Below, in pieces: positions 61,719 through 64,000 of a stretch of DNA of 64,000 nucleotides. Numbering within the stretch: position 1 is the first letter of the stretch; each line of letters begins with the position of its first letter. This stretch comes from Escherichia coli. GTDB taxonomy: Bacteria > Pseudomonadota > Gammaproteobacteria > Enterobacterales > Enterobacteriaceae. Location of the stretch: the NCBI RefSeq assembly GCF_045037415.1, contig NZ_CP173440.1, one strand, 5' to 3'. The position numbers and the translations under genes are program-made. The notes under the pieces were generated by a model. The model made no database searches and was not told the DNA's origin. It saw only the letters and a program-made list of their open reading frames with translations.

Positions 61719-61738
61719 TACTGGTTATATATACAGTG
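61719..61738 (+). promoter_or_regulatory. LexA (SOS) box
   Basis: TACTGGTTATATATACAGTG versus consensus TACTGTATATATATACAGTA (CTGG-N8-ACAG). Confidence 0.7.
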
Positions 61739-63640
61739 TGCGCCGGGAACCGGTTAGAGATCAAGGGGTGAAAGTCCCCGACCATTGAAGGACCAGCAAT
61801 CCACAAGGTCCCCGAGTCATGCGTTGCATACCGCGAGGTATGGGGCGAAGCGTTGACAGGGGTGTTGACAGGCCAGCCATTGAGCCACGAAATGTATATT
61901 AAATTACCGGGTGCCGACGTTGTACTGTTAACGGAAGGCAACATCATAGGGTGCGATACTGCGAGTGCCACATGGACCCGGCGGGGTCTGAGACCCTGGC
62001 ATGTCAATACGATCTCTACGCGGGAACCGGGAGATCTCCCCTCTGACCATCTGCCAGTGTCGGAGATGGCCCGCACCGGGAAGACGAGGAGTCATAGCCG
62101 GTGATGTACGGAGAGGAGAAGTCGGACTCGCTCATAGTAGCGGCGAAGCAGGCGAACAACCCGAAAGGAGCGGAGTCAGTGGAGCGAAGGAGCGGGGCCA
62201 AGGGGAACGCGGAACAGCCACACATGCGCCGGACACAGAGCCGGGAAAGCATGTCACAGAGGCTGTCACGCGTGCGGGAAGCTGCGAAGCAGCGGAAGAA
62301 AGAACGGTTTACAGCATTGTTCCACCTGCTGACAGTCGAAGCACTGGAAGCCGCATTCCTCTCCCTGAGCAGGAAAGCGGCCGCCGGAGTGGATGGCATC
62401 AGGTGGATGGACTACGCCGGAAACATGAAGAACAACATAACAGATCTGCACCGGAGGCTACATCAGGGCAGCTACAGGGCGCAGCCCGGCAGGCGTCACT
62501 ACATCCCAAAAGCGGATGGAAAACAACGCCCGCTCGGCATCGCCTCGCTGGAGGACAAGATCGTCCAGTATGCGCTGGTGAAAATCCTGAACGCAGTCTA
62601 TGAAAACGACTTTATGGGGTTCTCATACGGGTTCAGACCCGGGCGAAGCCAGCACGATGCACTGGACGCACTGGCCACAGGGCTGGTACGCACTAACGTA
62701 AACTGGGTACTGGATGCCGACATCAGTCAGTTCTTCGACAGGGTGAGCCACGAATGGCTGATCAGGTTCACAGAGCATCGGATCGGCGACCGGAGGGTAA
62801 TCAGGCTCATACGTAAGTGGCTCACAGCCGGGACGTCGGAGGAGGGTCAATGGCGAGCAACGGAGGAAGGCACCCCACAGGGTGCGGTCATCTCACCGCT
62901 GCTGGCAAACATATACCTCCACTACGTCTTCGATCTGTGGGCGCATCAGTGGCGACGTCGCTATGCCACAGGCAATGTGGTAATGGTCAGATACGCCGAT
63001 GACATCGTCATCGGGTTCGACAAACGATACGATGCCCGGCGCTTCCGTATAGCCATGCAGCGCAGACTGAGGGAGTTCGGACTCACGGTTCACCCGGAGA
63101 AAACCCGTCTGATGGAGTTCGGCCGCTTCGCTGCCGAAAACCGTGCCATCAGGGGAAAAGGCAAACCAGAAACGTTCAACTTCCTCGGGTTCACGCACAT
63201 CAGCGGGAAAGATCGCAACGGCAGGTTCATGCTGATACGAAAGACCCGCCGGGATCGGATGACGGCAACTCTGAAAGCCATCAAAGACGGTCTGCGAAGG
63301 CGCTGGCATTACTCAATCCCCGAACAGGGAAAATGGCTCAGGAGAGTGGTTCAGGGATACCTGAACTATCACTCGGTACCGGGCAACTTCCCCACCATGC
63401 AGAAGTTCAGGACACACGTAACAAACCTCTGGCGCCGGGCGCTCAGGCGCAGGAGCCAGAAGGATGATACGACCTGGACGAAAGCAAACAAACTGGCAGC
63501 CGCATGGCTACCAAGGGTTCGGGTTCTTCATCCATGGCCTGTGGAGCGGTTCACCGCCAGACACCCGAGGCAGGAGCCCGGTGCGTAAATCGCGCACGCC
63601 GGGATCTGTGCGGGGGGTATCCGGTAACGGGTATCCCTAC
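61738..63640 (+). mobile_element. group II intron (about 1.9 kb; 3' boundary approximate)
   Basis: 5' GTGCG at 61738. Structured GC-rich 5' domains. RT/maturase ORF in domain IV. 3' GNRA hairpin GGGTATCCG-GTAA-CGGGTATCC (63612-33). Confidence 0.8.
62101..63588 (+). CDS. group II intron reverse transcriptase/maturase
   Basis: 495 aa. RT motifs including YADDIVIGF, plus a maturase (X) domain. No obvious HNH endonuclease domain. Confidence 0.9.
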   Translation: MMYGEEKSDSLIVAAKQANNPKGAESVERRSGAKGNAEQPHMRRTQSRESMSQRLSRVREAAKQRKKERFTALFHLLTVEALEAAFLSLSRKAAAGVDGIRWMDYAGNMKNNITDLHRRLHQGSYRAQPGRRHYIPKADGKQRPLGIASLEDKIVQYALVKILNAVYENDFMGFSYGFRPGRSQHDALDALATGLVRTNVNWVLDADISQFFDRVSHEWLIRFTEHRIGDRRVIRLIRKWLTAGTSEEGQWRATEEGTPQGAVISPLLANIYLHYVFDLWAHQWRRRYATGNVVMVRYADDIVIGFDKRYDARRFRIAMQRRLREFGLTVHPEKTRLMEFGRFAAENRAIRGKGKPETFNFLGFTHISGKDRNGRFMLIRKTRRDRMTATLKAIKDGLRRRWHYSIPEQGKWLRRVVQGYLNYHSVPGNFPTMQKFRTHVTNLWRRALRRRSQKDDTTWTKANKLAAAWLPRVRVLHPWPVERFTARHPRQEPGA

Positions 63641-63672
63641 CGCGACGTTTTTAAGTGATCGGAGGTTGCGCC

Positions 63673-64000
63673 TATGTTCTTAATTCCAATGGAAAATCCT
63701 GAGAAAATCGCCATCCCTTTATTTCTCGAGCGGTGTGCAGCTGGCTTCCCCAGCCCTGCCCAGGATTATACTTCCAGTGAGCTAGACCTGAACGATTATT
63801 GCATCAGGCATCCATCCGCAACATATTTCGTGCGAGCTCAGGGAAACAGCATGCAGGATGTCGGTATGCGTGATGGAGATTTGCTGGTGGTGGACCGTTC
63901 TCTGCGTCCTCAACATCGCGATATCGTGATCGCCGAGGTGGACGGCGGCTTCACTGTTAAACAGCTCCAGACCACTCCCAGACTGGCCCTGTTGCCTATG
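63673..64000 (+). CDS. umuD: UmuD/MucA-like SOS mutagenesis protein (runs off right edge)
   Basis: Not in the track because no stop lies in the window. ...CAAGFPSPAQDY...IRHPSATYFVRAQGNSMQD...GDLLVVD is the LexA/S24 peptidase signature. GGAGG SD 8 nt upstream. Confidence 0.85.

What the first reader, a model, noticed from the sequence alone, without database searches (positions are those of the whole stretch)
61719..63675. Group II intron inserted exactly between the LexA box and the RBS of a umuD-like gene
**What is seen.** A near-consensus SOS box TACTGGTTATATATACAGTG (61719-38) ends where the intron's GTGCG 5' end begins (61738). About 1.9 kb later the sequence resumes as ...GATCGGAGGTTGCGCCTATG. 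That is a GGAGG SD followed by the ATG of a UmuD/MucA-like gene (63673 onward).

**Consequence.** The SOS-regulated promoter must now transcribe through the intron, including its own RT ORF in the same orientation. umuD expression depends on read-through and splicing, or on an intron-internal promoter.

**Possible target preference.** Insertion directly after a palindromic operator is reminiscent of class C (IIC) introns, which home next to stem-loops. The RT here also lacks an obvious endonuclease domain.
Basis: partly seen in the sequence, partly recalled or inferred. Interest (0 to 1): 0.6.

Follow-up and report, generated by a model that had tools for sequence, protein, structure and literature searches.

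The report
Known intron that homes into SOS boxes
The insert is a copy of the catalogued mobile group II intron Kl.pn.I5 (also called S.ma.I1), and comparing about 50 independent insertion sites shows that this intron lineage inserts specifically into LexA operators (SOS boxes), a target preference I found described nowhere in the searchable literature.

Summary
A 1909-nt group II intron (61738-63646, + strand) sits in the promoter region of a plasmid umuD gene. An intron-free allele joins the two exons exactly.

It is not a new element. It differs from the reference Kl.pn.I5-1 of plasmid pKPN3 by one deleted G, and 4420 PLSDB plasmids carry it.

The class C suggestion fails. The intron has both EBS1 and EBS2, confirmed by covariation with target sites across nine lineages. 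Its domain V has an AGC triad. The operator forms only a negligible DNA hairpin. One paper calls S.ma.I1 group IIB.

The main result goes beyond the finding. In 51 of 55 independent flank contexts the intron lies directly after CTG-N10-CAG(T/C), between nucleotides 19 and 20 of the 20-nt LexA consensus. These sites precede umuDC, sbmC, colicin-like, DinI/Tum-like and phage genes, in either orientation. EBS2 and EBS1 pair with the right half of the box. Relatives with only 69% RT identity also sit at LexA boxes.

Here the intron is in sense orientation, about 8 nt downstream of the predicted transcription start. It is therefore probably LexA-repressed and must splice for normal umuDC mRNA. This last step is inferred, not shown.

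The parts
61694..61722 (+). Predicted sigma-70 promoter of umuDC: -35 TAGGCA (61694-61699), 17-nt spacer, -10 TATACT (61717-61722). The implied transcription start is near 61729, inside the LexA box.
   Evidence: consensus scan only. Many other sense-orientation sites show TTGAYN-17-TACTGT, with the -10 formed by box nucleotides 1-6.
61719..61738 (.). LexA operator (SOS box) TACTGGTTATATATACAGT+G, core CTG-N10-CAG at 61721-61736. Nucleotide 20 is now the intron's first G.
   Evidence: The same box is intact in the intron-free allele L005.
61726..61731 (+). IBS2 (exon positions -12 to -7, TATATA), predicted to pair with EBS2.
61733..61737 (+). IBS1 (exon positions -5 to -1, ACAGT), pairs with EBS1.
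61738..63646 (+). Group II intron Kl.pn.I5 / S.ma.I1, 1909 nt, 5' GTGCG ... 3' CGCGAC.
61743..61753 (+). First hairpin of domain I, CCGG-GAA-CCGG. The other copies read have the loop GAGA. The window copy lacks one G (intron nt 12); functional effect unknown.
61771..61996 (+). Domain I core matched by Rfam RF02005 (186.6 bits).
61893..61899 (+). EBS2 (UGUAUAU) in the internal loop of the domain Id stem.
   Evidence: This loop covaries with exon positions -16 to -6 in relatives.
61923..61929 (+). EBS1 (ACUGU, 61924-61928) in a hairpin loop. The flanking U at 61923 could pair with exon +1 (A or G).
62101..63588 (+). Intron-encoded reverse transcriptase/maturase, 495 aa. The SD GAGGAG is at 62086-62091 and the start is GTG 62101 or ATG 62104. 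No endonuclease domain. The stop codon (63586-63588) lies in the domain V loop.
63573..63607 (+). Domain V: AGC triad, 2-nt bulge, 5-nt loop.
   Evidence: Fold and compensatory changes in relatives. Rfam RF00029 gave no hit.
63610..63643 (+). Domain VI: GUAA loop and a bulged A at 63639, 7 nt before the 3' splice site.
63647..63673 (+). 3' exon leader of umuD, with SD GGAGG at 63661-63665.
63674..64000 (+). umuD (5' part; runs off the window).
   Evidence: The homologue is annotated umuD, followed by umuC, in L005.

Best explanation
**What it is.** This is a copy of the mobile bacterial group II intron Kl.pn.I5 (= S.ma.I1 / Se.ma.I1). It has a IIB-like ribozyme and an RT/maturase without an endonuclease domain.

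**How it chooses its site.** The intron retrohomes into LexA operators.
- EBS2 (UGUAUAU) pairs with exon positions -13 to -7 of the box.
- EBS1 (ACUGU) pairs with positions -5 to -1.
- A U pairs with +1 (A or G).
- T-16 and G-15 are probably read by the protein.
- The intron reverse-splices between nucleotides 19 and 20 of the 20-nt SOS box.
- The box is nearly palindromic, so either orientation relative to the regulated gene can occur. Which half best matches ...ATAWAWACAGT decides the orientation.

**What it does here (inferred).**
- The intron lies in sense orientation, about 8 nt downstream of the predicted umuDC transcription start, and the 16-bp LexA core is untouched.
- Intron and RT are therefore probably transcribed from the LexA-repressed promoter and induced by DNA damage.
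- Normal umuDC mRNA requires splicing.
- LexA occupancy would also shield empty target boxes until SOS induction.
For: **Identity**
- The intron is 1909 of 1910 nt identical to Kl.pn.I5-1 of pKPN3.
- PMC6764390 equates Se.ma.I1 with Kl.pn.I5.

**Intron anatomy**
- RF02005 matches at 186.6 bits. The ORF has RVT_1.
- Domains V and VI show compensatory changes in relatives.
- An exact empty site exists.

**Targeting**
- Of 84 distinct 30-nt 5' flanks, 75 end in CTG-N10-CAGT and 5 in CTG-N10-CAGC.
- Of 55 clusters of the -60 to -21 flank, 51 have the box at the junction.
- Information content is confined to -19 to +2 and spells TACTGTATATAWAWACAGT|A.
- Neighbouring genes are UmuD (Peptidase_S24), SbmC (GyrI-like), cloacin-like and DinI/Tum-like proteins.

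**Base-pairing**
- The EBS1 and EBS2 loops covary with the exons. The cognate assignment is the best of 362,880 permutations.

**Activity**
- Two new Kl.pn.I5 insertions arose during a hospital outbreak, one 24 nt upstream of sbmC and one next to umuD (PMC8269217 Table S2).

**Lineage depth**
- Relatives at 69% RT identity, and other diverged ribozymes, also sit at CTG-N10-CAG boxes.

**Promoter**
-.
Against: - No RNA or protein-binding data exist. Transcription from the SOS promoter, LexA binding to a box ending in G, and splicing with a 5' exon of only about 8 nt are all inferred.
- The window copy has a private 1-nt deletion in a conserved GAGA loop and could be impaired.
- Conservation of the left half-site may only reflect where right-half sequences occur in genomes, rather than recognition by the intron. 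Three occupied sites have GTG or ATG instead of CTG.
- The viral and metagenome samples were collected with an 18-nt intron-end pattern. Many sites come from related prophages, so they are not all independent.
- A crude D1 tree places two non-LexA lineages among the LexA-targeting ones.
Confidence: 0.8

Rival explanations
1. One reading: a class C (IIC)-like intron recognises the palindromic operator as a DNA stem-loop and inserts after it, as IIC introns do at terminators and attC sites.
For: - The RT lacks an endonuclease domain.
- The target is a palindrome.
- The part upstream of the ORF is compact, about 350 nt.
- The RT scores marginally best against the GsI-IIC RT (150 bits).
Against: - EBS2 is present and covaries with the exon.
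- IBS1 and IBS2 lie inside the 3' arm of the would-be hairpin, not after it.
- The hairpin energy is -1.3 kcal/mol, z about 0.
- Domain V has AGC. That IIC introns have CGC is from my memory of the group II literature.
- The IIB RT T.el4h scores almost the same (146.9 bits).
- PMC5517477 calls S.ma.I1 group IIB.
Confidence: 0.04
2. Gene-specific homing: the intron homes only among homologous umuDC/mucAB promoters, and the LexA box is conserved at the junction simply because those promoters are related.
For: UmuD is the commonest neighbour, at 18 contexts including this window. Leclercq and Cordaux (PMC3522654) treated the site as a conserved intergenic homing site.
Against: - Sites also precede sbmC, a cloacin-like gene, DinI/Tum-like genes, a phage protein family and others.
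- The intron occurs in both orientations relative to the neighbour gene.
- Sequence outside -19 to +2 carries almost no information.
- The flanks fall into 55 distinct clusters.
Confidence: 0.03
3. The intron recognises only the right half (about 14 nt, ATAWAWACAGT|A plus TG at -16/-15). The link with LexA operators is a by-product: such sequences exist in enterobacterial DNA almost only as SOS boxes. There is no SOS-coupled expression or selection for operator targeting.
For: - Three occupied sites have GTG or ATG in place of CTG (L021, L124, L273).
- The left half lies outside the EBS-paired region.
- Eleven of the 18 UmuD-adjacent contexts (the 18th is this window) are antisense to the gene, where the SOS promoter cannot drive the intron.
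Against: - Two diverged sublineages with different EBS2 sequences and a shifted insertion point still sit at CTG-N10-CAG boxes. This suggests the operator niche has been kept over evolutionary time.
- C-17 is present in 52 of 54 sites.
- Sense insertions land about 7 nt after the inferred start of SOS promoters.
Confidence: 0.12

Closest known systems
Kl.pn.I5 / S.ma.I1 (Se.ma.I1), bacterial group II intron in Zimmerly's database
   Same: - Essentially identical sequence: 1909 of 1910 nt to Kl.pn.I5-1 of pKPN3, and pKPN3 carries the same RT protein accession (WP_004178082.1) as most other copies read.
- Same length as the 1910-nt S.ma.I1 annotated in PMC4147364.
- It also lies next to umuD in pKPN3.
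- From memory, not verifiable here: Kulaeva, Koonin, Wootton, Levine and Woodgate (Mutat Res 1998) described this intron in the promoter region of the mucAB-like operon of Serratia plasmid R471a.
   Different: - One deleted G in the first hairpin loop.
- Here it is sense to umuD, whereas in pKPN3 it is antisense.
- The papers I could read note a conserved homing site (PMC3522654) or new insertions near sbmC and umuD (PMC8269217). None mentions LexA or SOS boxes.
RmInt1-type IIB introns whose RT lacks the endonuclease domain
   Same: - EBS1/EBS2-guided homing.
- No En domain.
- Likely protein contact with one or two distal 5'-exon bases. RmInt1's dependence on T-15, and its use of replication-fork DNA as primer, are from my memory of the literature.
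   Different: - The target is a transcription-factor operator rather than an insertion sequence.
- The palindromic target allows both orientations.
- Membership of the same RT class was not tested.
Group IIC and IIC-attC introns
   Same: They are site-specific for a recurrent regulatory or structural DNA motif rather than a gene, and they are En-less.
   Different: They recognise a stem-loop plus a short IBS1 and lack EBS2. Here recognition is by about 12 bp of EBS1+EBS2 pairing, and the hairpin is negligible.

Membership tests
Mobile bacterial group II intron | 5' GUGYG and 3' AY boundaries that match a precise empty site | tested here: met
   GTGCG at 61738 and AC at 63645-63646. The exons are joined exactly in L005.
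Mobile bacterial group II intron | Domain I-IV ribozyme structure | tested here: met
   Rfam RF02005 at 186.6 bits against a gathering score of 49, full-length match.
Mobile bacterial group II intron | Domain V (catalytic triad, 2-nt bulge) and domain VI with a bulged branch A | tested here: met
   Fold and compensatory changes in about 20 relatives. The Rfam D5/D6 model RF00029 gave no hit.
Mobile bacterial group II intron | RT/maturase ORF in domain IV | tested here: met
   RVT_1 at E = 4.6e-47. Solved group II RTs match at about 150 bits. No separate Pfam maturase-domain hit.
Mobile bacterial group II intron | EBS1-IBS1 and EBS2-IBS2 pairing with the flanking exon | tested here: met
   Covariation across 9 lineages. 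The cognate pairing is the best of 362,880 permutations.
Mobile bacterial group II intron | Splicing and retrohoming activity | not testable with these tools
   Indirect only: two de novo insertions in an outbreak (PMC8269217 Table S2), and both occupied and empty alleles of this site exist.
Kl.pn.I5 / S.ma.I1 | Near-identity to the reference copy (NC_009649, 119263-121172) | tested here: met
   One difference in 1910 aligned positions.
Group IIC (bacterial class C) intron | No EBS2; a short IBS1 placed after a stable stem-loop (terminator or attC) | tested here: not met
   EBS2 is present and covaries. IBS1 and IBS2 lie inside the palindrome. The hairpin is -1.3 kcal/mol, z = 0.27 and -0.52.
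Group IIC (bacterial class C) intron | CGC catalytic triad in domain V (criterion from memory) | tested here: not met
   The triad is AGC here and in all aligned relatives with an intact D5.
Group IIC (bacterial class C) intron | RT groups with class C RTs | tested here: inconclusive
   GsI-IIC scores 150 bits and the IIB T.el4h RT 146.9 bits. No reference phylogeny was available.
LexA operator (gammaproteobacterial SOS box) | CTG-N10-CAG with an AT-rich spacer, overlapping the promoter of an SOS gene | tested here: met
   Core at 61721-61736. It overlaps the predicted -10 and transcription start of umuDC.
LexA operator (gammaproteobacterial SOS box) | LexA binding and damage-inducible derepression | not testable with these tools
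   Needs EMSA, footprinting or a reporter assay, for both the empty and the occupied box.

The most novel reading that the evidence does not exclude
Kl.pn.I5 and its relatives form a lineage of group II introns that has adopted the LexA operator itself as its homing site and has wired itself into the SOS regulon.
- **Sense insertions** land about 7 nt after the start of SOS promoters and leave the operator core intact. Intron RNA and RT would then be made only when LexA is cleaved. That is also when empty operators lose their LexA cover and replication forks stall.
- **Antisense insertions** separate the -35 region from the operator and the gene. This would probably silence umuDC on very common Klebsiella plasmids of the pKPN3 type.

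I found no description of this in the searchable literature.
Probability: 0.45. Interest if true: 0.7.

Novelty: already known. Interest (0 to 1): 0.5.

Why it matters
**The element itself is ordinary.** It is a named intron carried by thousands of enterobacterial plasmids, so the finding as written is a rediscovery.

**The target rule may matter.** A retroelement that homes into a transcription-factor operator would be a new kind of target niche for group II introns, beside insertion sequences, terminators and attC sites.
- It would predict damage- or conjugation-inducible intron mobility.
- It explains why new insertions in clinical Klebsiella appear at sbmC and umuDC.
- Many epidemic plasmids may carry umuDC operons that either depend on splicing (sense copies) or have a split promoter (antisense copies). 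That bears on SOS mutagenesis in resistant pathogens.

All of these predictions can be tested with standard retrohoming and reporter assays.

Tried and rejected
- **Rfam search for domains V/VI** (RF00029), at E up to 10 on 63450-63720: no hit. Comparative alignment was used instead.
- **PDB sequence search to assign the RT class:** IIC and IIB RTs score alike.
- **Paper look-ups:** Kulaeva et al. 1998 and Dai and Zimmerly 2002 are not held. Prior description of the mucAB-promoter intron therefore rests on memory.
- **Full-text searches** for group II intron with umuD, LexA, SOS box or mucAB returned nothing on operator targeting. The few candidate papers that I opened were irrelevant.
- **L004 (CP067551)** was first taken as an intron-free allele. 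Its upstream half-site has been replaced by other DNA, so L005 was used.
- **Promoter scans** of an antisense site (L002) and of E. coli umuDC (L007) found nothing at the tool's threshold. TACTGT matches TATAAT at only 3 of 6 positions.
- **Hairpin (IIC-like) recognition** was rejected.
- **The box as part of the mobile unit** was rejected, because empty sites carry the full box.
- **Other Rfam hits** in the first scan (mir-660, Ysr35) are far below their gathering scores. The mir-660 match falls on CRISPR repeats; Ysr35 lies just upstream of the array.
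Full report
**1. What is there**

The sequence at 61719-61738 is TACTGGTTATATATACAGTG, a CTG-N10-CAG palindrome with an AT-rich spacer. GTGCG begins at 61738.
- Rfam's covariance model RF02005 (group-II-D1D4-6) matches 61771-61996 end to end, at 186.6 bits against a gathering score of 49.
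- A 495-aa ORF (62101-63588, + strand) carries Pfam RVT_1 (E = 4.6e-47) and nothing resembling an HNH endonuclease.
- The last 75 nt of the intron fold into a domain V (63573-63607; AGC triad, 2-nt bulge) and a domain VI (63610-63643; GUAA loop). The bulged A at 63639 lies 7 nt before CGCGAC at 63646.
- Both helices show compensatory changes in about 20 relatives. The Rfam D5/D6 model gave no hit.
- After 63646 comes GTTTTTAAGTGATCGGAGGTTGCGCCATG. GGAGG is at 63661-63665 and the umuD start at 63674.

**2. Boundaries**

I joined the two exons into a synthetic query. It finds 144 plasmids that cover at least 80% of it, and all but one of the 40 listed match it in a single uninterrupted piece. 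One of them, L005 (NZ_CP026172, IncFIB/IncHI1B), reads ...TATATACAGT|GTTTTTAAG..., and its umuD is followed by umuC. The intron is therefore 61738-63646. It lies between nucleotides 19 and 20 of the 20-nt LexA consensus, not simply after it.

**3. Identity**

Megablast finds the intron in 4420 PLSDB plasmids, mostly Klebsiella, and in 218 of 5426 complete E. coli genomes.
- Leclercq and Cordaux (PMC3522654, Table S3) give Kl.pn.I5-1 as NC_009649 119263-121172. That stretch differs from the window intron only by one extra G at intron nt 12, in a GAGA loop.
- PMC6764390 equates Se.ma.I1 with Kl.pn.I5.
- PMC4147364 lists S.ma.I1 as 1910 nt.
- PMC5517477 calls S.ma.I1 group IIB.
- From memory only: Kulaeva et al. 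(Mutat Res 1998) reported this intron in the promoter region of the mucAB-like operon of R471a. The paper is not held.

The element, and its presence next to umuD-type genes, is therefore already known.

**4. The target is the LexA box itself**

I collected copies from several sources: annotated plasmids and E. coli genomes, an RT-based scan of one genome per species, and scans of viral and metagenome contigs with the first 18 nt of the intron.
- Among Kl.pn.I5-like copies there are 84 distinct 30-nt 5' flanks. Of these, 75 end in CTG-N10-CAGT and 5 in CTG-N10-CAGC.
- The other four are a tandem intron junction, two degenerate boxes (ATG or GTG in place of CTG) and one rearranged flank.
- The -60 to -21 flanks fall into 55 clusters, and 51 have the box at the junction.
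- Over 54 complete distinct sites, information content is high only from -19 to +2. It spells TACTGTATATAWAWACAGT|A(T), the LexA consensus.
- Neighbouring genes include plasmid and chromosomal umuDC, sbmC, a cloacin/colicin-like gene, DinI/Tum-like genes and a small phage protein family.
- Of 18 UmuD-adjacent contexts (including this window), 7 are sense and 11 antisense.
- Two new Kl.pn.I5 insertions arose during a hospital outbreak, 24 nt upstream of sbmC and next to umuD. That paper never mentions LexA or SOS (PMC8269217).

**5. How the site is read**

The hairpin loop at 61920-61931 contains ACUGU, which is complementary to exon positions -5 to -1 (ACAGU). The internal loop at 61890-61905 contains UGUAUAU, complementary to -13 to -7.

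In diverged relatives with other targets, both loops change in step with the exon. In the pairs below the first sequence is the intron's EBS and the second is the exon's IBS:
- L032: EBS1 GUUUCC with IBS1 GGAGAC; EBS2 GAUGUC with IBS2 GACAUC.
- L295: EBS2 AACACUUA with IBS2 UAAGUGUU.
- L053: EBS2 GUUCAAA with IBS2 UUUGAAC.
- L040: EBS1 UGUCAC with IBS1 GUGACA.

Across nine lineages the cognate intron-exon assignment scores best of all 362,880 permutations with Watson-Crick pairs only. With G-U pairs allowed, 2 of the 362,880 reach the cognate score.

T-16 and G-15 are kept in 53 of 54 sites, including the degenerate boxes, which suggests a protein contact. Conservation of C-17 may only reflect where such sequences occur.

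The intron therefore behaves as a IIB-type intron with EBS1 and EBS2. The IIC analogy fails on four counts:
- EBS2 is present.
- The IBS elements lie inside the palindrome's 3' arm.
- The box folds as DNA at only -1.3 kcal/mol, no better than shuffled sequence.
- The triad is AGC (the CGC rule for IIC is from memory).

**6. Depth of the lineage**

- A 92-93% variant has EBS1 extended to ACUGUUU. Most of its sites end in AAACAGT or GAACAGT.
- L097 and L305 have different EBS2 sequences (GGAUA, GUUUA) that match their own box variants (UAUCC, UAAAU).
- L030, L031, L029 (69% RT identity, betaproteobacterial-type contigs) and L239 insert one nucleotide further, after CAGTA or CAGTG, with EBS1 UACUGU.
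- A crude D1 tree puts the LexA-targeting introns in two neighbouring groups, with two non-LexA lineages between them. This tree has no support values and is tentative.

**7. Consequences at this locus (inferred)**

- The only + strand promoter-like site is TAGGCA-17-TATACT at 61694-61722. It implies a transcription start near 61729, inside the box.
- Many other sense sites show TTGAYN-17-TACTGT, with the -10 formed by box nucleotides 1-6.
- The pre-RNA would therefore carry a 5' exon of only about 7-9 nt, holding IBS1 and part of IBS2. The intron would be the first product of a LexA-controlled promoter.
- The 16-bp operator core is intact. Only nucleotide 20 changes, to G.
- No promoter-like site lies within the intron on the + strand. 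umuDC expression should therefore need read-through and splicing.
- In antisense copies (pKPN3, L001, L002) the intron separates the region upstream of the box from the operator and the gene. This probably disables the umuDC promoter.
- The window copy's single-base loop deletion has unknown effect.

**8. Novelty**

The intron and its location are known. Full-text searches for group II intron with umuD, LexA, SOS box or mucAB found no statement that the homing site is the LexA operator. The two papers that list sites do not make the connection. The 1998 paper and the intron database could not be consulted, so prior recognition cannot be excluded.

**9. Limits**

- There are no expression, binding or homing data.
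- The viral and metagenome samples were selected with an intron-end pattern, and many come from related prophages.
- The RT class was not assigned.

Noticed in passing
window 60462-61404 (and ORF 59366-60397): A CRISPR array of 16 repeats of about 29 nt (GTATTCCCCCCGYRTGCGGGGGTTATCGG) with a 61-nt period lies directly upstream of the umuD promoter. A 343-aa ORF with a weak RAMP match precedes it. From memory, the repeat looks like the plasmid-borne type IV-A3 systems of Klebsiella megaplasmids.
   Followed up: partly
window 60675-60706 and 60736-60767: Two neighbouring CRISPR spacers are near-duplicates (the 61-nt units are 93% identical).
   Followed up: no
window 44752-44769: A second ACTG-N10-CAGT palindrome (ACTGTATACCTGGTCAGT), possibly another LexA operator on this plasmid. 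It carries no intron. Its right half (GGTCAGT) does not match EBS1/EBS2.
   Followed up: no
L113 6088-11832 and L150 1103-3029: Head-to-tail tandem copies of the intron with no exon between them: four at 1909-nt spacing in L113 and two in L150. An occupied site still reads ...ACAGT|G, and G is tolerated at +1, so re-homing into an occupied site could explain this. Assembly error is not excluded.
   Followed up: partly
window 63586-63588; L030/L031: The RT stop codon lies in the terminal loop of domain V. In the 69% relatives the aligned sequence appears to read on to a UAA in the domain VI loop. The protein-coding and catalytic RNA sequences therefore overlap.
   Followed up: partly
window 61747-61749: The window copy has GAA where the other copies read (159 in the loci fetched) have a GAGA tetraloop in the first hairpin of domain I. 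The best plasmid hit, NZ_CP072810 (100% identity over the 2601-nt query), presumably shares it.
   Followed up: partly
L010, L011, L013, L015, L016, L017, L027, L028: Copies with an RT 100% identical to the window's, some read with enterobacterial-type LexA-box flanks, appear on contigs (most about 1.5-2.3 kb, two longer) in draft assemblies labelled Streptomyces, Actinomadura, Microbacterium, Kitasatospora, Pedobacter, Flammeovirga, Arthrobacter and Eggerthellaceae. These are most likely contamination of the assemblies.
   Followed up: no
L040-L046 (MAG CAWDTW01): One alphaproteobacterial MAG holds at least seven copies of a 64%-identity relative, all inserted after (A/T)TTACGGTGAC(A/G). EBS1 matches GUGACA. 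No EBS2 complement to the conserved UUAC was found.
   Followed up: partly
L021, L023, L024, L026, L039 (Klebsiella michiganensis DSM 25444): One genome carries at least five copies of the 93% variant on chromosome and plasmid contigs. The four whose 5' junction could be read lie at different LexA-type boxes, one of them degenerate (GTG-N10-CAG).
   Followed up: partly
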